Virus record (IMG/VR): IMGVR_UViG_3300018877_000003
From: a virus
Direction: 5' to 3' (one strand)
DNA: 64,000 nt
This document shows, in pieces, positions 7,315 through 21,585 of the stretch (the stretch's first letter is position 1; the number at the start of each line of letters is the position of its first letter). A program made the position numbers and the translations under genes. The notes below the pieces were generated by a model that saw only the letters and a program-made list of their open reading frames with translations, ran no database searches and had not been told where the DNA came from.

Positions 7315-7828
7315 TCCTAATTAAATCGTTAACTCTTTTCTCAACTACTTCTGTTAGTTGTAAATAAACTTCATCTCCAAATGTTTTATGCAACTTTTTT
7401 AGATCGTTAATTGCATCAAGGCATTCATCAATCGATTCAATTAAGTCATATCTAACTACATCACTGTCGTTTACACCTTTTATACCAATTGCATCTCTAA
7501 TGGCGAATTTTATTTCTTCTTTAACTTTATTTGAATTAAGTAACACAAAGCAAAATGAAGGATAGCCACCTGTTTCGTGATTATACTCCTTAATTGCTGT
7601 TGCAATGATGTCATATGCAGTATCTCCTTCGGCAAATAAAAATACTTCTTCATGATCAAAATCTTTCATATGATTGATAAGATCAGGGTATATAGGATAG
7701 CCAAAGTAATAATACTCCTTAAATTCTTCATCATACCGAACATCTGTAATTAGGTAAGCATGGTTGTATAGATTGGATGAACGTAATTTAACAATGTCTC
7801 CTATTTGAAAATGCTCCAAATTAATCAC
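7298..7828 (-). CDS. hypothetical protein
   Basis: 176-aa co-oriented ORF. No motif recognised. Confidence 0.65.
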   Translation of the reverse strand: MINLEHFQIGDIVKLRSSNLYNHAYLITDVRYDEEFKEYYYFGYPIYPDLINHMKDFDHEEVFLFAEGDTAYDIIATAIKEYNHETGGYPSFCFVLLNSNKVKEEIKFAIRDAIGIKGVNDSDVVRYDLIESIDECLDAINDLKKLHKTFGDEVYLQLTEVVEKRVNDLIRSDVRG

Positions 7829-13804: not shown

Positions 13805-14125
13805 TTAACGTATAATTAATGATGAAGAGTAAATTGACTCCTCTCCATTCTTATAAATTACCTTAACTTCTTCGCTTTCTGGATTCCCTATAATTTTGCT
13901 TATATTATTTTGAATAAAAGACCTGTCAATTTCGTCTTCAAAAATGTTAAAGTGACCGCTTATTAGCCATAGAACCTCATCCTCATTTATTTGGTTTCTT
14001 GAACAGTGATTGGCTCCATAATTATCATACGTTGAACATACATAGGTATGTTTCTTAGCTCTCTTTTTAAATTTATGCTTCTTGCCACATTTCGAACAAT
14101 AAACTAAACCTTTTAGTAAAGACAT
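13805..14125 (-). CDS. stand-alone recombinase zinc-ribbon-domain protein (C-terminal third of a large serine recombinase)
   Basis: 106 aa from M8, which has an AGGGAGGA SD. LVYCSKCGKK...YVCSTYDNYGANHC matches the zinc beta-ribbon of large serine recombinases. No catalytic domain is present. Confidence 0.6.
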   Translation of the reverse strand: MSLLKGLVYCSKCGKKHKFKKRAKKHTYVCSTYDNYGANHCSRNQINEDEVLWLISGHFNIFEDEIDRSFIQNNISKIIGNPESEEVKVIYKNGEESIYSSSLIIR

Positions 14126-14221
14126 GTATGTATCCTCCCTGAACAACGCTCGTCTCCATTAATAAACATCTGTGATTATCTGGAGATAACAAAATAAAAG
14201 CACCCTTTGGATGCCTGAGTT

Positions 14222-14578
14222 TCAATTTTTATCTGATAATTCATTATCAATTATTTTCTTTGTTGCTTTCAGAATAGCTTTTCTTAATTTTTTATTTGAT
14301 GCAAGCTCTTCTTTGCCGACTTTCTCTAGATATGAGATAGTTATGTTGAGTGAATCTTCAACTTCTATTCCTTTAATTAAATAATCGAGAGACACTTCAT
14401 AATAATCGGACAACTTTTTGAGCATTTTTAAATTTGGTTTACGCTTTCCATTCTCATAGTTTGCATAAGTATTCTTTGCAACACCGATTGCTTCACCAAC
14501 TTCTTCCATAGTTGGCTTAAAAGGAATCTTTTTTCTTAATTCTCGTAGCCTGTTGCCAAATTCACTCACTTTCTTCAT
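14222..14578 (-). CDS. XRE-family HTH regulator 2
   Basis: Contains FGNRLRELRKK...MEEVGEAIGVAKNTYANYENGKRKPNL. Start uncertain (ATG 14578 or GTG 14569). Confidence 0.75.
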   Translation of the reverse strand: MKKVSEFGNRLRELRKKIPFKPTMEEVGEAIGVAKNTYANYENGKRKPNLKMLKKLSDYYEVSLDYLIKGIEVEDSLNITISYLEKVGKEELASNKKLRKAILKATKKIIDNELSDKN

Positions 14579-14918
14579 CTCCCGAGACGTCATCATTTTG
14601 AAGTATTTTTATAAGATTGATTACTGTCTTTCGTTTTTCTTCTGTTAACTTATATAAGCTATTTATGGTTTGGTTTATTTCTGACTCATAAAGATGCTGT
14701 CTTTTCATTGTTGATTGGTTATATTCTGATCTTCCAAGTAAATAATCTGTAGTTGTATCCAACACATCTGCCAATTTGCAGAGTATATCATGAGATGGAG
14801 TGCTGTGACCTGTTTCATAATTTGAAATAGTTCCTTTTGTTGTACCTATTTTATTTGCCAACTCAGTTTGAGTTAACTTTTTCTCTTTTCGTTTCTGTCG
14901 CAACCTCTTAACATCCAT
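14562..14918 (-). CDS. XRE-family HTH regulator 1
   Basis: Contains LRQKRKEKKLTQTELANKIGTTKGTISNYETGHSTPS. Start at ATG 14918, with a GAGGTGG SD. Confidence 0.8.
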   Translation of the reverse strand: MDVKRLRQKRKEKKLTQTELANKIGTTKGTISNYETGHSTPSHDILCKLADVLDTTTDYLLGRSEYNQSTMKRQHLYESEINQTINSLYKLTEEKRKTVINLIKILQNDDVSGDEESE

Positions 14919-14951
14919 GTGTTTAATCCACCTCACAGTCTGTATAAGCAT

Positions 14952-14980
14952 ATCATACATTGGTTAAGTTTCTCAAACAA
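14952..14980 (-). promoter_or_regulatory. candidate sigmaA promoter of the XRE-XRE-zinc-ribbon unit
   Basis: The - strand reads TTGTTT-17 nt-TATGAT. Confidence 0.45.
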
Positions 14981-16571: not shown

Positions 16572-17006
16572 TTATGAGAGAACACTATTTATTGCTTCTT
16601 CAAGCATTTCATTAAAGTTTTCAAATTTTTCAATTACTTCCCCACTTGGTTTATCCAATTCGACAAAGACATTGTTATCAATATCGAGACAATACCAAGA
16701 AATGTTAGAATCACCAAAAAATAAGTAGTTATAATCCCAATCATTTTCACGCCATATTTCATTAGCTCCAATAATTCCATTGTTGTCGTCATTAGGACTT
16801 GCATTATAAATAACTAACCCATTAAAATCTAACCCATTTGCTTTTTTTAAAAATACCTCATGGTCTTTTACCCAAAGATTTTCTTTCACATTTTTGGAAA
16901 CCCATTCTTTTGTCAGTTGAATATCTTCATTATTTGCTGGTATCATAATTGATTTGTTATCTTTATTTTTAAATTCTTCTATTCGTAATAATAATTCAGA
17001 AATCAC
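16572..17006 (-). CDS. immunity protein for the LXG toxin (SUKH/SMI1-KNR4-like)
   Basis: Lies immediately downstream of the toxin. GTG start at 17006 with an AGGAGTG SD, 11 nt after the toxin stop. The FLKKANGLDFNGLVIY...YCLD pattern matches SUKH proteins. Confidence 0.6.
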   Translation of the reverse strand: MISELLLRIEEFKNKDNKSIMIPANNEDIQLTKEWVSKNVKENLWVKDHEVFLKKANGLDFNGLVIYNASPNDDNNGIIGANEIWRENDWDYNYLFFGDSNISWYCLDIDNNVFVELDKPSGEVIEKFENFNEMLEEAINSVLS

Positions 17007-17017
17007 AAAAATCACTC

Positions 17018-18889
17018 CTAGTCTTTTGTGGTTGGATATATGAAACCATCTGGCACAGGCCATTTAATTTCTGCTGATTCTCCCACCTTTAATCCTTTTG
17101 TTAAAGTTCTTTGAGCATTTGTGAGAGCCTTATGATAAGGATCGTTTTTAATTAAAACCAAATTCTCAAAATCATTTGTTCCACCATCATCTAGAGGGAG
17201 CTTGTGGTGAACTTGATAACCATCAGGAACAAGACCTTTTTTCATACTTTCAATATCTGCTTTAGTTAATCCTGCATTTATTAATTGATAAATCTTCTTT
17301 GGATCAACTGTCAAGTTCATAAGAAAATTTTTCCTAACAGAACTATTAAATTGATTTCTTAAAGTTTTAAATTCATCTCTATTACGTTTAGTGTAAGTTA
17401 TCTCTCTTTCAGAGACACTTTTTAAAGTAACGTTCTTACCTTTTAATTTCCCAATATATTCAGTTCCAATCTTTTGCATCGTGTCGATTACATTTTTATT
17501 CAAATCAGAAGCTCTCTTTATATAGTGAATGAGCTTATTTTTTATATTTTCACCATTTAGGGCATGGTAAGGGATTTTTGCTCCACCTGCAAATTGAACT
17601 TGAGGAGAAAGAGGGTTGTGTATTTGAATGTTTTTAAGTTTATTTATTTTGTCATGAATATATTTTTTAGAAGCTTCTACAGCTTTTGTTGTAGTCTGAC
17701 CAACTTTACCTGCTTTAGCGGCTTTCCCTACTTTATCAACGCCTTTTGTTCCAACAACTGATGTGCCGACCATTCCAATAGCATATGTAAACCATCTCGC
17801 TCTACTTTCTGCATCGCCATTGATAACATCTCTCTCAAAAGAGTCTTCTATCCCTTGTTTTATAATATTGAAGGTGTCAACAGGATGTATGATGGTATTA
17901 GCAATTCCTTTTAACGTTTCCATTGGATTAGTTAAGGTGTCCCAAATGCCAGTAGCAGTATCAACAACTACATCTTTCACTCCAATACCGATGCCAGTAA
18001 GAATGTCATCGCCTGTTTTGTTGAATTTAGCCAGATTGTAAATCACCTTCTGATCAGCAGTTAGATTGTCATAGCCAATCTCGTCAGCAATTTGAATATA
18101 TTCTCCATTATCTATAGTGTTATCAAGCTTTTTCTTCAATGCCTCTATTCGCTGTATTTCTTTTTCTACGGCTATTTTTTCAGCCTCTTCTTTTTTGATT
18201 GTAAGGTATTCCTGTGTTTTCTTATGGATTTCATCTTTGTACTTAAATGCTTTGGTGTCATAGTAAGCTTTTGCATTAAAGTTGATCGGTTGAGCATCCC
18301 TCCCTTTGCCTGTAGCGTCCAACAGGGCTTTGTTTCGCTCTTTGATATAATCTTGATTTAATTCCGATTTCTCGTATTCGTTTTTTAATTTCCAATCAAT
18401 TTCATGAATTTTGTCAACTGTATTGTCTTTAATCGCTTTTGCATTAGAGATATGTTCTTTAAAGTCTAATGTTGAAAAGACTTCTAACGGAACGATATCT
18501 TTTATATCTTCTAAGATAGTTTTAATCGCTTGCTTCTGTCCAACCACAATTTCATTCGATTTTCCATAGGCAACCTCTAGTTCGTTTTCTAAATAGGAGG
18601 TGTCAACAAATGTATCGCCCGAGAGACCAGCTTCTTCTAGTTTTCCAGCGATGCTATCAAAAAAAGCGATTTGCATGTCAATCATACCAAGCCATTCATC
18701 TACATTCCTAGCATGCTCTTTGTAAAAAGCCTTAATGTTGTCAGCACCTTCGCCTTGGAAATCATCTCCTAAGTTGGCTATTTCCTGAAAGGCGGTTTGA
18801 AGATTGACAAATTCTTCTCTAAGGTTCTTATATTCATTTGATCGACTTTCCATTGCGGATATAAGGGTTTTGGATTCATAAACTTTCAT
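17018..18889 (-). CDS. LXG-domain polymorphic toxin with C-terminal xHH-type HNH/EndoVII nuclease domain
   Basis: 623 aa. N-terminal LXG signature (FQGEGADNIKAFY), a long helical linker, and a C-terminal YQVHHKLPLDDGGTNDFENLVLI..DPYHKALT. Confidence 0.8.
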   Translation of the reverse strand: MKVYESKTLISAMESRSNEYKNLREEFVNLQTAFQEIANLGDDFQGEGADNIKAFYKEHARNVDEWLGMIDMQIAFFDSIAGKLEEAGLSGDTFVDTSYLENELEVAYGKSNEIVVGQKQAIKTILEDIKDIVPLEVFSTLDFKEHISNAKAIKDNTVDKIHEIDWKLKNEYEKSELNQDYIKERNKALLDATGKGRDAQPINFNAKAYYDTKAFKYKDEIHKKTQEYLTIKKEEAEKIAVEKEIQRIEALKKKLDNTIDNGEYIQIADEIGYDNLTADQKVIYNLAKFNKTGDDILTGIGIGVKDVVVDTATGIWDTLTNPMETLKGIANTIIHPVDTFNIIKQGIEDSFERDVINGDAESRARWFTYAIGMVGTSVVGTKGVDKVGKAAKAGKVGQTTTKAVEASKKYIHDKINKLKNIQIHNPLSPQVQFAGGAKIPYHALNGENIKNKLIHYIKRASDLNKNVIDTMQKIGTEYIGKLKGKNVTLKSVSEREITYTKRNRDEFKTLRNQFNSSVRKNFLMNLTVDPKKIYQLINAGLTKADIESMKKGLVPDGYQVHHKLPLDDGGTNDFENLVLIKNDPYHKALTNAQRTLTKGLKVGESAEIKWPVPDGFIYPTTKD

Positions 18890-18997
18890 GGATTCAATCC
18901 TTTCCCAAGCGATAGTTAGATATATTTTACCACTTAAGAGAAAGATTGGTGAAGAGGATTTTACTTTAAATCAATATTGTAGGGGAATATAGAGGTC

Positions 18998-19038
18998 AAC
19001 TTAAAAACACAATGAGAGTTGTGTACAGTTTTTAAGTT
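18998..19038. repeat. 41-bp palindrome A (11-bp perfect arms), probable terminator of the recombinase gene
   Basis: AACTTAAAAAC-19 nt-GTTTTTAAGTT. The loop carries the 16-mer ATGAGAGTTGTGTACA (19012-19027). Confidence 0.6.
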
Positions 19039-19044
19039 ATATAG

Positions 19045-19098
19045 ACTATGTTAGTTGTGGTTACAACGCTTTGCCGTTATGTTGTCAACTAGCATAGT
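19045..19098. other. 54-bp imperfect palindrome B, candidate attP or recombinase binding site
   Basis: ACTATGTTAGTTG (19045-57) pairs with CAACTAGCATAGT (19086-98) at 12/13 positions. There are inner ACAAC/GTTGT arms and a central TT at 19071-72. It lies 30 bp from the recombinase stop. Confidence 0.35.
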
Positions 19099-19127
19099 AT
19101 GGGTGAGCTAACATTCTCAAAATACGA

Positions 19128-20750
19128 TTAGCTGGCGAGGTATGTTTCTGATTGCTCTTTACGTCCTTTAATGAGACTGCCAATCACACCGACAATTGAA
19201 ATATTATATTGCTCACTTTCCCACTCAATTATAATTTCATCGATGAGCGAGGATATGATTTTTTGCTTTGTTTCAAAAGAAATCTTATCTTGATTCTTAA
19301 TTTCATTTTTAATCTGTCCAATAAATTTTATTAAATCCTTTTTATTCTGATTGTCGATTTCTTTATCTTGAATCTGATCCTCATATTTTGATATTTCAAT
19401 TTTGATTAACTTTTCTTTTTCATTTAGTTTTTGTATATCTAAATCCATTTCGTTCTCTTCAATATAACCTTTTTTAAATAATTGAAGTATTCTCTTTCGT
19501 TCTTTGGATATCTCCTCTAATTTAAACTTCAATAAATCGTATGCTTGTCTAACTGAATCATTTGCTCTTTCTTCTTTTCCAGCGTGAACAATTTTCGAAG
19601 GATCAAAAATAAAATCATAAATCATTTCCCAAATTTGTTTTTCAATTTCGTTAGCTTTTAAAATTTTTGAACAACAACTTTTTGCACCTTCTCCGAAAAC
19701 TCGACCATTCTTATTCACGCATCTATAATTTTTGTATGAATGTGTTGATGTAACCTCTCCTGTTACTTTTGATCTCGTTTTAGAAGTAGTTGTGTAGGAC
19801 GAATATTTTGCACCGCAGTGAGCACATCTGATCATTTTTCTCAAAAGATACTGATGTTTCACATTTCCTGAATGACTTGTATTTTTGACTCGTTGATTTT
19901 CTGCTAATGTAAATGTCGCGAAATCAACTATAGGAGGAACAGATACTTCGATCCATTCTTCTTTATCTCTATTTTCATAAGCTCTTTTTGGTTTACCTGA
20001 TTTAGTTTTTTCGCCTTTAATCTTTTTCATTTTTTTCTTGTTATAATAAAATTTCCCAATGTATGTTTCATTTTTAAGAATTTTATTGATGGTGCTCTGA
20101 TTCCACAAATGACTCTTTTTCATTTTTGTTTTGGCGCCCAATATGGAAAGTCGTTCACCAATTTCTCTGATCTTCAACTTATCATAAACATACCATTGGT
20201 AAATTTTCCTAACAAATTTTGCTTCTTCTTTGTTGATAACTAATTGCCTATCTACATAGTCGTATCCATAAGGTGGTACACGCATAGGCATAACAAATCC
20301 ATTTTTTACTGCCTTAATTGATCCTCTTCTTGTTCTTTTTTTGATTAATGCCAATTCATACTCAGCGATTGACGACTGAATATTAAAAAAGAGCTTCCCT
20401 TCTTCTGTATTCTTATACTCAGTATCAACAAAAACAAGCTCTACGTTACTTTTTTCAAATTCAGTACAAACAAGAAGTCGGTCAATCATGTTCCGGCTTA
20501 GACGGTCAGGATGAACGATGATAATTCTTTCTATCTTGCCCAATTTCACATCTTCTCTTAATTCATCCATCCGAGGTCTTTCAATATCTTCTCCAGAAAA
20601 ACCTCTTTCTTCATATTCAAGAATAAGATCATCAGGAACATTTAACTCTTTCGCCTTCTTCAAACAAGCCTCTCTTTGATATTCAAGACTTGTTCCATGA
20701 TCTACTTGCTTATCTGTGGACACACGTGTATAAATTGCTGTATATCTAAT
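19128..20750 (-). CDS. large serine recombinase (integrase)
   Basis: Contains AIYTRVSTDKQ (catalytic Ser), DRLSR, PPYGYDY, the zinc ribbon RCAHCG...YRC and a coiled-coil tail. The conserved N-terminus extends upstream of the track's GTG. The only in-frame start options there are ATT codons (20750 or 20756). Confidence 0.85.
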   Translation of the reverse strand: MRYTAIYTRVSTDKQVDHGTSLEYQREACLKKAKELNVPDDLILEYEERGFSGEDIERPRMDELREDVKLGKIERIIIVHPDRLSRNMIDRLLVCTEFEKSNVELVFVDTEYKNTEEGKLFFNIQSSIAEYELALIKKRTRRGSIKAVKNGFVMPMRVPPYGYDYVDRQLVINKEEAKFVRKIYQWYVYDKLKIREIGERLSILGAKTKMKKSHLWNQSTINKILKNETYIGKFYYNKKKMKKIKGEKTKSGKPKRAYENRDKEEWIEVSVPPIVDFATFTLAENQRVKNTSHSGNVKHQYLLRKMIRCAHCGAKYSSYTTTSKTRSKVTGEVTSTHSYKNYRCVNKNGRVFGEGAKSCCSKILKANEIEKQIWEMIYDFIFDPSKIVHAGKEERANDSVRQAYDLLKFKLEEISKERKRILQLFKKGYIEENEMDLDIQKLNEKEKLIKIEISKYEDQIQDKEIDNQNKKDLIKFIGQIKNEIKNQDKISFETKQKIISSLIDEIIIEWESEQYNISIVGVIGSLIKGRKEQSETYLAS

Positions 20751-20769
20751 GACAATTCATCTCCCGAAG

Positions 20770-20785
20770 TGTACACAACTCTCAT
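20770..20785. repeat. inverted copy of the 16-mer ATGAGAGTTGTGTACA
   Basis: Exact reverse complement of 19012-19027. Sits between the recombinase promoter -10 and its SD. Confidence 0.8.
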
Positions 20786-20789
20786 ATTA

Positions 20790-20818
20790 ATTATATACAC
20801 TATTATAGTATTTGAAAA
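20790..20818 (-). promoter_or_regulatory. candidate sigmaA promoter of the recombinase gene
   Basis: The - strand reads TTTTCA-17 nt-TATAAT. The predicted start falls at the edge of the 16-mer. Confidence 0.45.
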
Positions 20819-20867
20819 GAAAGAGATGAAAATCTTGCATTCACCTCTTTCTTATTATGTATTAGCA

Positions 20868-21053
20868 TCATTCTTCTACTCTATTAATTACTCCATTCAA
20901 AACTCCATTTAACCTTAAATCATTCCAGATTAGTTGATAACAATATGTTAAAGTCTTTTCAACATCGTCTTCATCAAAATCCTTTTGAATGAAACTAACT
21001 TTATTTAATTGACTCAATTTATTTTCACCTTTTCTTACACTACAAAGTGACAC
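20868..21053 (-). CDS. small acidic hypothetical protein
   Basis: 61-aa ORF (possibly 49 aa from TTG with an AAAGGTGA SD), directly upstream of the recombinase unit. Confidence 0.45.
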   Translation of the reverse strand: MSLCSVRKGENKLSQLNKVSFIQKDFDEDDVEKTLTYCYQLIWNDLRLNGVLNGVINRVEE

Positions 21054-21585
21054 TTAAAGATTTAGGATCAAGACGTATTACACTTCTTTGTCTCTTATTA
21101 GCATATTTAACTGTATTCCAAGTTCCTCCGGCTTCAACTCCGTCCCAAATTGCAATTAGAAATTTCGAGTTGTCTACCATCCATTCATTTCTTCTTTGCA
21201 TACACCAAGGTGTGTAATTTTCTTTTGATATATAGCAGATATGATCTGCATCTTTTAAAATATTATGATATGTATCTTTGTCTTCTCTCTTCCACTTTTC
21301 GCTTTGATTCATACAGGGGACTGCACAAATCAATTTAATATGTGGGTATTTCTTTCTTAAAGAAAGGACTACTTGTGCTGACCACATGTCTGATCCAAGT
21401 GCCATACCTGAGACAAATGTATCTATTCCTCTTCTATTAATAAGTCGCTCAACAAGGGTTTTTAATTTCAGAAACAGTCGCATATTCCCCTCTTCCAGAG
21501 GGTCATAGCCAAACAATTTATCTGGTCTATGACCTGTAAAAGCAAGGGTTTTATCAAAATTTATTTCAAATTGAAAGCAACTCAT
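21040..21585 (-). CDS. SLOG-superfamily DUF1273/YpsA-like protein
   Basis: Contains AFTGHRPDKL, SGMALGSDMWSAQVVL.LRKKYP.IKL, RRNEWMVDNS..LIAIWDG. Confidence 0.7.
   Translation of the reverse strand: MSCFQFEINFDKTLAFTGHRPDKLFGYDPLEEGNMRLFLKLKTLVERLINRRGIDTFVSGMALGSDMWSAQVVLSLRKKYPHIKLICAVPCMNQSEKWKREDKDTYHNILKDADHICYISKENYTPWCMQRRNEWMVDNSKFLIAIWDGVEAGGTWNTVKYANKRQRSVIRLDPKSLSVTL

What the first reader, a model, noticed from the sequence alone, without database searches (positions are those of the whole stretch)
19012..20785. Perfect 16-bp inverted repeat brackets the recombinase gene: one copy at its transcription start, one in the loop of its terminator palindrome
ATGAGAGTTGTGTACA occurs at 19012-19027 and as its exact reverse complement at 20770-20785. 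The upstream copy lies between the predicted -10 (20790-20795) and the SD of the recombinase. The downstream copy occupies the 19-nt centre of the 41-bp palindrome A (18998-19038, 11-bp perfect arms). A 16-mer match somewhere in 64 kb is not remarkable by itself. Finding the pair within about 100 bp of both ends of one gene is remarkable. There are three non-exclusive readings. (i) The 5' leader and the 3' terminator loop of the same mRNA can pair over 16 nt next to the SD, which would control translation or stability. (ii) The pair is a duplicated operator for one DNA-binding protein. (iii) The pair marks crossover sites for inversion of a 1.77-kb segment, which would uncouple the recombinase from its promoter.
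Basis: seen in the sequence. Interest (0 to 1): 0.65.

Follow-up and report, generated by a model that had tools for sequence, protein, structure and literature searches.

The report
Integrase gene and attP bracketed by repeat
A perfect 16-base inverted repeat flanks a Bacillus phage's serine integrase gene together with its attachment site (attP). One copy is an attachment-site look-alike on the integrase promoter, so the pair probably controls integrase expression according to whether the phage is integrated.

Summary
ATGAGAGTTGTGTACA occurs only at 19012-19027 (+) and 20770-20785 (-), against 0.05 matches expected by chance.

The anatomy needs revising. The gene is a large serine integrase of an SPbeta-like phage of the Bacillus licheniformis group. 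Its attP is a 52-bp imperfect palindrome at 19046-19097. I confirmed this by comparing attP-, attL- and attR-state relatives. "Palindrome A" is not a terminator. It lies 8 bp outside attP. The repeat therefore brackets int plus attP, and in lysogens the two copies sit at opposite ends of the prophage.

The promoter copy (H1) is a consensus att half-site covering about +1 to +24 of the int transcript. Matrices built only from foreign att arms rank it among the top three sites in the window. Relatives at 54-59% identity, and an unrelated Goe14-type integrase, also carry a half-site-like element in the int 5'UTR.

The distal copy (H2) is conserved exactly in a second lineage. There the hairpin stem around it is kept by compensatory changes.

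My best reading, at about 0.4, is duplicated integrase-binding operators. The main rival, at about 0.3, is 5'/3' RNA pairing that depends on integration state. Inversion is not supported.

The parts
20770..20785 (-). H1: the promoter-proximal 16-mer. It reads ATGAGAGTTGTGTACA on the int sense strand.
   Evidence: It is invariant (14-16 of 16) in all relatives.
20764..20787 (+). H1 extended: a 24-nt att-type half-site, CCGAAGTGTACACAACTCTCATAT, written centre to outer. Its 'centre' falls on the SD.
   Evidence: PWM from 4 foreign arms: rank 3 of 128,000 positions, 19.3 bits, shuffle maximum 15.7. PWM from the L092/93/94 arms only: rank 2, 20.8 bits, noise 11.2.
20790..20818 (-). Predicted int promoter: -35 TTTTCA at 20813-20818 and -10 TATAAT at 20790-20795. 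The predicted start is near G20783.
   Evidence: 10 of 12 consensus matches. Conserved in relatives.
20806..20864 (-). Terminator hairpin of the upstream operon, followed by a T-run.
   Evidence: I2. L001 and L006 show compensatory changes in the stem.
20761..20765 (-). Shine-Dalgarno sequence GGGAG of int.
   Evidence: Read from the sequence. Invariant in relatives.
20746..20760 (-). Four-codon uORF, ATGAATTGTCATTAG, overlapping the int start (ATTAG).
   Evidence: Read from the sequence. Invariant in relatives.
19128..20750 (-). Large serine integrase, 540 codons, with the likely start at ATT 20750-20748.
   Evidence: Pfam Resolvase, Recombinase and Zn_ribbon_recom domains. P0001 (96% identical) begins MRYTAIYTRVST. 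An in-frame TGA lies at 20759-20757. The GTG at 20723 would delete the first beta-strand, ahead of the catalytic Ser.
19046..19097 (.). attP: P' arm 19046-19069, spacer with central dinucleotide at 19071-19072 (AA on the int strand), P arm 19074-19097.
   Evidence: Homology with prophage attR loci breaks here. The attL of L144 carries the identical P' arm joined to yprB. L155 attP equals the L006 attR P arm plus the L146 attL P' arm. These arms are the top PWM hits.
19012..19027 (+). H2: the distal 16-mer. It reads TGTACACAACTCTCAT on the int sense strand and lies 8 bp plus one stem arm outside the P' arm.
   Evidence: Exact in L155 and L146, 15 of 16 in L144.
18998..19038 (.). Palindrome A: 11-bp arms AACTTAAAAAC/GTTTTTAAGTT around H2.
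   Evidence: I21. Predicted RNA hairpin -10.1 kcal/mol, z -3.1. In L155 and L146 the arms are AACTTAAAATA/TATTTTAAGTT, so two base pairs changed on both sides. The arms are degraded in L144.
18924..18953 (-). Promoter of the LXG toxin operon (TTCACC-18-TAAAAT with a TG extension).
   Evidence: Conserved in L146 and L155.
17018..18889 (-). LXG/HNH polymorphic toxin gene. In lysogens it is the first prophage gene inside attL.
   Evidence: Pfam LXG. Context in lysogens.

Best explanation
The two 16-mers are DNA sites of the integrase's own att half-site type.

Shown:
- The gene is a large serine integrase.
- Its attP is the 52-bp imperfect palindrome at 19046-19097.
- The repeat brackets int plus attP in free phage DNA. 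After integration the copies lie just inside attL (H2) and 1.7 kb inside attR (H1), about a genome length apart.
- H1 is a consensus att half-site covering about +1 to +24 of the int transcript, with its inner end on the SD.

Inferred:
- Integrase binds H1 through its recombinase and zinc-ribbon domains and represses its own promoter or leader. The stand-alone zinc-ribbon paralogue encoded about 5 kb away could do this instead.
- H2 copies the outer, zinc-ribbon-domain part of that site. It provides a second landing site next to the P' arm.
- Integrase occupancy around int-attP, and hence int expression, would then differ between the unintegrated and the integrated state.

The claim that H1 is an integrase operator is stronger (about 0.65) than the claim that the pair acts only at the DNA level (about 0.4).
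For: - attP is defined by comparing attP, attL and attR sequences.
- A PWM from four foreign arms ranks the window's P arm, P' arm and H1 as 1, 2 and 3 of 128,000 positions. H1 scores 19.3 bits; the next hit is 14.1 and the shuffle maximum is 15.7.
- A PWM from only the L092/L093/L094 arms ranks H1 second, at 20.8 bits. That is above the window's own P arm (18.8), with noise at 11.2.
- H1 matches the family consensus better than it matches the window's own arms: 17 of 24 against 15 of 24.
- L092 and L094 carry half-site-like elements in the int 5'UTR, scoring 14.1 and 8.8 bits against a background maximum of 9.8. Their orientation is flipped, which suits a double-stranded DNA site and not an RNA element.
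- SPbetaL2 (Goe14-type) has an integrase only 28% identical. Its 5'UTR element is the best non-self match to its own attP arms, and an inverted copy lies beyond attP.
- The leader is a conservation island: 95-100% identity, against about 75-80% for the int coding sequence.
Against: - H2 matches only the outer 16-18 nt of a half-site. As a full 24-mer it scores 1.1 bits.
- H1 and H2 are identical at positions where both depart from the att consensus. They are more conserved than the real att arms. Integrase binding alone does not require this.
- The hairpin stem around H2 is kept by compensatory changes in a second lineage. A protein-binding model does not explain this.
- The Goe14-type distal copy lacks the CATAAAAG core of its half-site but stays complementary to the 5'UTR copy.
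- No large serine integrase is known to me to use lone half-sites or to autoregulate, and none turned up.
- No binding data exist.
Confidence: 0.4

Rival explanations
1. RNA-level sensor of integration state. The int mRNA starts at about the third base of H1. In unintegrated phage DNA it reads through attP into H2, which sits in the loop of an 11-bp hairpin. The 5' end then pairs with its own 3' region over 14-19 nt, next to the SD. This could change translation, create an RNase III target, or protect the 5' end. After integration H2 is a genome length away, so the cis pairing is lost. Host read-through from yprB or yknU across attL would instead produce an anti-leader RNA acting in trans.
For: - The complement is a perfect 16 of 16 (18 of 19). 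The predicted duplex is -26 kcal/mol, and the 5' end pairs with H2 in the minimum-energy fold of the 1.8-kb mRNA.
- No terminator is predicted between the int stop codon and H2.
- The hairpin has z -3.1 in the window and z -4.3 in L146. Two stem pairs changed on both sides in L155 and L146.
- The invariant 14 nt begin at the predicted transcription start. Positions 1-2 vary: L001 H1 has ACG, L144 H2 has GTG.
- H2 lies beyond attP, as lambda sib does.
- Host genes at attL point into H2.
- The Goe14-type pair is 23 of 26 even though the distal copy has lost the half-site core.
Against: - This model does not explain why H1 is a consensus att half-site, including the inner CCG that lies outside the repeat.
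- It does not explain why related leaders carry the element in flipped orientation.
- The hairpin is lost in the L144 lysogen, which folds at 0 kcal/mol.
- L093 and L094 have no H2-like copy.
- No covariation between H1 and H2 was observed, because both are invariant.
- The transcription start and the read-through are predictions only.
Confidence: 0.3
2. Only H1 is functional, as an operator or leader element. H2 would be a relic of a local duplication of an att arm or of H1. It would persist because it sits in a short spacer that is swapped as a block between these phages.
For: - P' and H2 are direct repeats 34-36 bp apart, which looks like a tandem duplication.
- Relatives at 54-59% identity have an H1-like element but no H2.
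- The palindrome has decayed in L144.
Against: - H2 with the left stem arm is the longest invariant block of the int-LXG spacer across three lineages. The adjacent P' arms differ at 7 of 24 positions.
- The stem shows compensatory changes.
- An independent analogue exists in Goe14-type phages.
Confidence: 0.13
3. The 16-mers are operators for a different phage regulator, for example one of the two HTH proteins at 14222-14960. The palindromic GTGTACAC core would be its binding site, and the resemblance to att arms would be incidental.
For: - The GTGTACAC in H1 is self-complementary.
- Two repressor-like HTH genes lie about 4-5 kb away.
- The sites stay invariant even though integrase and its att arms diverge.
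Against: - H2 has only TGTACA, because the eighth base differs.
- The core occurs nowhere else in 64 kb, so there is no sign of a regulon.
- The PWM evidence for half-site identity reaches well outside the 8-mer.
Confidence: 0.1
4. The pair are crossover sites for inversion of the 1.77-kb int-attP segment.
For: The repeats are inverted and flank a recombinase gene.
Against: - Each copy is a lone half-site with no partner half-site across a central dinucleotide (read from the flanks; no further PWM hit beside H1 or H2).
- All 8 attP-state sequences (the window, L069-L074, L155) and 10 or more prophage loci have the same orientation.
- The enzyme is a 540-aa integrase with a proven attP and attB system, not a small invertase.
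Confidence: 0.02

Closest known systems
Lambda sib retroregulation of int
   Same: A cis element lies on the far side of attP from int. It is linked to the int transcript only in unintegrated DNA and is removed by integration.
   Different: sib is a local RNase III hairpin acting from the 3' end of a tyrosine-integrase mRNA. Here the element is an exact complement of the 5' end of a serine-integrase mRNA. It is also an att half-site look-alike. No RNase III data exist.
Tn3/gamma-delta resolvase autoregulation at res
   Same: A serine recombinase binds recombination-type sites that overlap its own promoter and so represses itself (from established knowledge).
   Different: res is the actual recombination site, made of three dimer-binding sites, and it belongs to a small resolvase. 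Here a lone half-site mimic is separate from attP, the enzyme is a large serine integrase, and binding is untested.
Goe14-type SPbeta-like phages (SPbetaL2, SPR, BUCT082/083)
   Same: They have the same architecture: a half-site-like element in the int 5'UTR ending at the SD, then attP, then an inverted copy beyond it (26 nt, 88%).
   Different: The integrase is only 28% identical. attP lies inside the 3' coding part of int (bioRxiv 10.1101/2021.11.22.469490). The repeat sequence is unrelated and imperfect. The feature is not described in that paper.
S. aureus icaR 5'UTR-3'UTR pairing
   Same: A 3'UTR segment pairs with the 5'UTR of the same mRNA near the SD (from established knowledge).
   Different: In icaR the pairing is constitutive and covers the SD. 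Here it would stop 1-4 nt before the SD and would depend on integration state.
Integration-dependent immunity of mycobacteriophages
   Same: Integration at attP changes the expression of a phage regulatory or integration gene by changing what is physically linked to it (from established knowledge).
   Different: There attP lies inside the repressor gene and the switch works through a degradation tag on the protein. Here the coding sequence is untouched, and only a flanking 16-mer is separated from the gene.

Membership tests
Large serine recombinase / phage serine integrase system | N-terminal resolvase catalytic domain with the Ser nucleophile, a recombinase domain and a zinc-ribbon domain | tested here: met
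   Pfam PF00239 (8.5e-32), PF07508 (3.4e-18) and PF13408 (3.8e-08). The AIYTRVSTDKQ motif is present only if translation starts at ATT 20750.
Large serine recombinase / phage serine integrase system | An attP of about 50 bp: an imperfect inverted repeat around a central dinucleotide, next to int | tested here: met
   Window 19046-19097: 23-nt arms plus a 6-nt spacer, with central AA. The arms are the top PWM hits.
Large serine recombinase / phage serine integrase system | attL and attR hybrids in lysogens made of P or P' arms joined to host sequence | tested here: met
   L144 attL is yprB joined to the window's P' arm. L006 attR plus L146 attL reconstitute the L155 attP.
Large serine recombinase / phage serine integrase system | A recombination directionality factor | not tested
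   None was identified. A stand-alone Zn_ribbon_recom protein (13805-14146) is only a candidate partner.
Intrinsic (Rho-independent) terminator, for palindrome A | A G+C-rich stem followed by a U tract | tested here: not met
   No terminator-like site in 18700-21200. The stem has one G-C pair in 11, the loop is 19 nt and the tail is GACCUCUA.
Invertible DNA segment (Hin/Gin/Cin type) | Full crossover sites (two half-sites around a central dinucleotide) in inverted orientation | tested here: not met
   Each 16-mer is a lone half-site. No partner half-site lies across the predicted centre (read from the flanks; no further PWM hit beside H1 or H2).
Invertible DNA segment (Hin/Gin/Cin type) | Both orientations present in populations | tested here: not met
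   Only one orientation occurs in 8 attP-state and 10 or more prophage-state sequences. Read-level data were not available.
Lambda sib-type retroregulation | The element lies distal to attP, so integration unlinks it from int | tested here: met
   H2 lies outside the P' arm. In lysogens it sits at attL while int sits at attR.
Lambda sib-type retroregulation | The int read-through transcript forms a nuclease-sensitive duplex that lowers Int synthesis | not testable with these tools
   Only predictions are available: a -26 kcal/mol duplex of 16-19 bp and no terminator before H2.
Recombinase autoregulation through its own binding site at its promoter | A sequence of the recombinase's recognition type overlaps the promoter or transcription start | tested here: met
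   H1 scores 19.3-20.8 bits with PWMs built from foreign arms. It covers about +1 to +24.
Recombinase autoregulation through its own binding site at its promoter | The recombinase binds that site and represses transcription | not testable with these tools
   This needs EMSA or footprinting, and reporter assays.

The most novel reading that the evidence does not exclude
The pair is an RNA switch that senses integration state for a serine integrase. The 5' end of the int mRNA pairs with an anti-leader held in a hairpin loop just beyond attP. The pairing acts in cis only while the phage genome is unintegrated. In lysogens the anti-leader is made in trans from host read-through across attL. The same leader DNA would also serve as an integrase operator. 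Two unrelated integrase lineages of SPbeta-like phages would have arrived at this design independently.
Probability: 0.28. Interest if true: 0.8.

Novelty: new variant of a known kind. Interest (0 to 1): 0.6.

Why it matters
Large serine integrases are treated, both in phage biology and as genome-engineering tools, as minimal systems. The standard view is one protein, a 50-bp attP, a 40-bp attB and a directionality factor, with no accessory sites. Little is known about how their expression is set.

Suppose the promoter half-site is an integrase operator and the distal copy makes control depend on integration state. That would be the first cis-regulatory layer described for this enzyme class. 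It would be a functional counterpart of lambda sib or of res-type autoregulation. It would also give a simple sequence rule for finding regulated integrases, by looking for a third att-like half-site in the int 5'UTR.

As a practical result, the work fixes attP, the integration targets (yprB, and the yknU/yknV junction) and the true integrase start for an undescribed SPbeta-like phage group.

Tried and rejected
- Megablast of the region against the phage records found nothing.
- A scan of genome contigs with the 16-mer returned 61 hits. All but one (L043, a 2-kb Metabacillus contig carrying the promoter copy) were chance matches in unrelated taxa.
- The viral-contig scan gave one relevant prophage, which held only H1.
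- I searched for an upstream/downstream inverted or direct repeat around integrases 40-59% identical. Nothing rose above the reversed and complemented controls. The bracket is therefore not a general property of the clade.
- SPbeta c2 sprA has no bracket. Alicyclobacillus phage MMB025 has none either.
- The four Goe14-type phages have identical arms, so they gave no covariation test.
- Rfam returned no match.
- No further copies of the core occur in the window, so there is no regulon.
- I considered an apparent 17 of 22 direct repeat between the -10 region of P_int and the flank of the P' arm. I dropped it because it is within control noise and is not conserved in L144 or L155.
- I considered an inner 6-bp hairpin plus U5 inside palindrome A as a small terminator. 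I rejected it because the stem is not conserved in L146 or L144.
- MAFFT misplaced the 1-nt indel in the hairpin alignment. I therefore read the stem pairs directly instead of using the pair-count tool.
Full report
**Observation.** ATGAGAGTTGTGTACA is at 19012-19027 on the + strand. Its exact reverse complement is at 20770-20785. With up to two mismatches these are the only copies in the 64-kb window, against 0.05 expected from shuffles. The match extends to 19 nt with one mismatch (I3). The 11-bp arms around the downstream copy are perfect (I21). The upstream copy lies between a TTTTCA-17-TATAAT promoter match, with -10 at 20790-20795, and a GGGAG Shine-Dalgarno sequence (SD).

**The gene.** The ORF on the - strand carries Resolvase, Recombinase and Zn_ribbon_recom domains, so it is a large serine recombinase.
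- The ORF finder starts it at GTG 20723. That start would remove the first beta-strand and leave the catalytic Ser as residue 2.
- The reading frame is open back to an in-frame TGA at 20759-20757.
- A 96%-identical database protein begins MRYTAIYTRVST. This corresponds to ATT 20750-20748, 10 nt after GGGAG.
- This ATT, the four-codon uORF ATGAATTGTCATTAG that overlaps it, and the whole leader are identical in every relative examined.
- NCBI proteins from B. glycinifermentans, B. haynesii and B. sonorensis are annotated from the same internal GTG.

**What the genome is.** Nearly all ORFs are on one strand, G+C is 32-35%, and there are no tRNA genes. The same sequence occurs in metagenome contigs of 157-158 kb. 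The closest integrases are in the B. licheniformis group. The neighbouring LXG toxin has a 92%-identical copy in B. licheniformis genomes. SPbeta-like prophages of B. licheniformis are described as the largest members of Spbetavirus (bioRxiv 10.1101/2021.11.22.469490). The window is therefore an unintegrated SPbeta-like phage genome.

**Finding attP.**
- In B. glycinifermentans, B. haynesii and B. sonorensis the orthologous integrase is the last gene of a prophage. The upstream genes are syntenic with the window (RNA ligase, KTI12-like kinase, ClpP, DNA ligase, YpsA-like). The downstream genes are three different host contexts.
- Homology to the window stops 35-60 nt after the stop codon. At that point the window has CTATGTTAGTTGTGGTTACAACG-CTTTGC-CGTTATGTTGTCAACTAGCATAG (19046-19097). 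This is 52 bp, with imperfect 23-nt inverted arms.
- I found the other prophage ends through LXG homologues. In a B. licheniformis lysogen, the yprB sequence CTTGTCACCTATAACGGCAAAGC is joined to the window's exact P' arm (L144).
- In B. sonorensis, the region after yknU is joined to a different P' arm (L146).
- A contig of that second lineage in the free state (L155, integrase 77% identical) carries an attP that equals the P arm of the L006 attR plus the P' arm of the L146 attL.
- The size, the symmetry and the central AA resemble the 52-bp attP of SPbeta (PMC5499854).
- Palindrome A (18998-19038) therefore lies 8 bp outside the P' arm. It is not the terminator of the integrase gene. The terminator scan finds nothing there.

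**Consequence for the finding.** In free phage DNA the order along the int sense strand is: promoter, H1, int, P arm, P' arm, H2, LXG operon. In a lysogen, H2 sits just inside attL and H1 sits 1.7 kb inside attR, about 150 kb apart and inverted. Host genes at attL (yprA-yprB', or yknU) are transcribed toward H2.

**Conservation.**
- H1 with its leader is a conservation island. Positions -66 to +13 relative to the GTG are 95-100% identical in four relatives. Their int coding sequences are about 75-80% identical, and their upstream terminator region falls to 50-90%.
- H2 is exact in L155 and L146, and 15 of 16 in L144.
- TAACTTAAAAnnTGTACACAACTCTCA is the longest invariant block of the int-LXG spacer. 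The adjacent P' arms differ at 7 of 24 positions between lineages.
- In L155 and L146 the stem arms are AACTTAAAATA/TATTTTAAGTT, against AACTTAAAAAC/GTTTTTAAGTT in the window. Two base pairs have changed on both sides. The predicted hairpins are -10.1 kcal/mol (z -3.1) and -11.0 kcal/mol (z -4.3).
- In L144 a three-gene insertion starts inside the right arm, and no hairpin is predicted.

**H1 is an att half-site.** I wrote the att arms from centre to outer end and built position weight matrices (PWMs).
- A matrix from four arms of other phages, with no window sequence, ranks the window's P arm first (28.5 bits), its P' arm second (23.8) and H1 third (19.3) among 128,000 positions. The next hit scores 14.1, and the best of 20 shuffles scores 15.7.
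- A matrix from the arms of three distant lineages only (L092, L093, L094; integrases 54-59% identical) ranks H1 second at 20.8 bits. That is above the window's own P arm, with noise at 11.2.
- The match includes the inner CCG, which lies outside the 16-mer. H1 fits the family consensus (17 of 24) better than it fits the window's own arms (15 of 24).
- The half-site's centre falls on the SD.
- H2 shares only the outer 16-18 nt. On the outer part it scores 14.9 bits (rank 2), which is barely above noise at 14.7. As a full 24-mer it scores 1.1 bits.

**Relatives.**
- The L092 and L094 contigs contain intact attP sites just after int. Each also has a half-site-like element between the -10 and the SD of int. 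L092 has ATGTTATGGACACAAATAACAAGG at 14.1 bits. L094 has GTGTACACAACTAACAAG at 8.8 bits. The window background maximum is 9.8.
- These elements point the opposite way from H1. A flip preserves a double-stranded binding site but turns an RNA element into its complement.
- No H2-like copy follows attP in L093 or L094.
- SPbeta c2 sprA has no bracket.
- SPbetaL2, SPR, BUCT082 and BUCT083 have a Goe14-type integrase only 28% identical to this one. Their int is bracketed by a 26-nt, 88% inverted repeat.
- Their attP is an imperfect palindrome inside the 3' coding part of int. This agrees with the published Goe14 description.
- The 5'UTR arm is the best non-self match to the attP arms in that locus, and it again ends at the SD.
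- The distal arm has lost the CATAAAAG core that both attP arms share, yet it keeps 23 of 26 identity with the 5'UTR arm.

**Interpretation.** Two facts have to be reconciled.
- First, H1 is an integrase recognition half-site placed on the start of the int transcript. Analogous elements recur with either orientation. This points to a DNA-level operator, meaning integrase or a zinc-ribbon paralogue repressing int. Resolvases do this at res. I put this part at about 0.65.
- Second, H2 is a better complement of H1 than it is a half-site. It sits in a hairpin loop whose stem is maintained, and it lies beyond attP. This points to RNA pairing. The predicted leader-H2 duplex is -26 kcal/mol, and it appears in the minimum-energy fold of the whole mRNA. 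The invariant 14 nt begin at the predicted transcription start, while positions 1-2 vary.
- For the pair as a whole I rank the readings as follows: duplicated integrase-type operators about 0.4, integration-state-dependent RNA pairing about 0.3, H2 as a relic about 0.13, another regulator about 0.1, inversion about 0.02.
- Inversion fails because each copy is a lone half-site, and only one orientation is seen in 8 free-state and 10 or more prophage sequences.

**Limits.**
- The promoter, the transcription start, the read-through and all binding are predictions.
- No H1/H2 covariation could be tested, because both copies are invariant and no lysogen gave both ends.
- The distant-homologue scans cannot tell free DNA from integrated DNA, except where attP was found.
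- No paper in two literature searches describes autoregulation or accessory half-sites for large serine integrases. That is absence of evidence within an incomplete library.

Noticed in passing
window 20746-20760 and 20748-20750 (- strand): The integrase appears to start at a non-canonical ATT codon, 10 nt after GGGAG. A four-codon uORF (ATG AAT TGT CAT TAG) has a stop that overlaps that ATT. Both are invariant in all relatives. Public annotations start the protein at an internal GTG, which would delete the strand before the catalytic serine.
   Followed up: partly
window 19073: The base next to the central dinucleotide of attP is polymorphic among otherwise identical metagenome copies of this phage: G in the window, T in L069, C in L071 and L074. 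It corresponds to the third position of the Gly codon in the yprB target (AAC GGN AAA GC).
   Followed up: partly
window 13805-14146 (- strand): A stand-alone 113-aa protein consists of a recombinase-type zinc-ribbon domain (PF13408, 2.3e-11). It lies next to two Cro/CI-type HTH genes (14222-14960) and is conserved in all relatives. It could be a DNA-binding competitor or an integrase cofactor. It has only weak similarity to the integrase's own zinc ribbon.
   Followed up: partly
window 16572-18889 (- strand): An LXG/HNH polymorphic toxin and a downstream immunity-like gene are the first genes inside attL of the prophage. The toxin C-termini and immunity genes differ between lineages (WHH, LHH and HNH types; SUKH or SMI1 immunity).
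   Followed up: partly
L144 3160-4700 (B. licheniformis lysogen): Three extra minus-strand genes and a strong bidirectional terminator are inserted between H2 and the LXG gene. The insertion junction lies inside the right arm of the palindrome.
   Followed up: no
L148 1380-1405, 3079-3124 and 3531-3556 (phage SPbetaL2; also SPR, BUCT082, BUCT083): In Goe14-type SPbeta-like phages a 26-nt inverted repeat brackets int. A 46-bp imperfect palindrome (probable attP, centre TTC AA GAAC) lies inside the 3' coding part of int. A short uORF overlaps the annotated TTG start.
   Followed up: partly
L001 and L002 about 7585-7600: In the B. glycinifermentans prophages the last codons of int (TAT GCT AGT TGA) are themselves the outer part of the P arm. 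The window has about 40 nt between a similar C-terminal sequence (GCCAGCTAA) and the P arm (GCTAGTTGA).
   Followed up: no
window 20806-20864: The terminator hairpin of the upstream operon overlaps the -35 of the int promoter. Its stem shows compensatory changes in L001 and L006.
   Followed up: no
L005 7678-13596 (B. haynesii): One relative is integrated inside a PBSX-like defective prophage, upstream of the xkdP/xkdQ-like baseplate genes. This is one prophage inside another.
   Followed up: no
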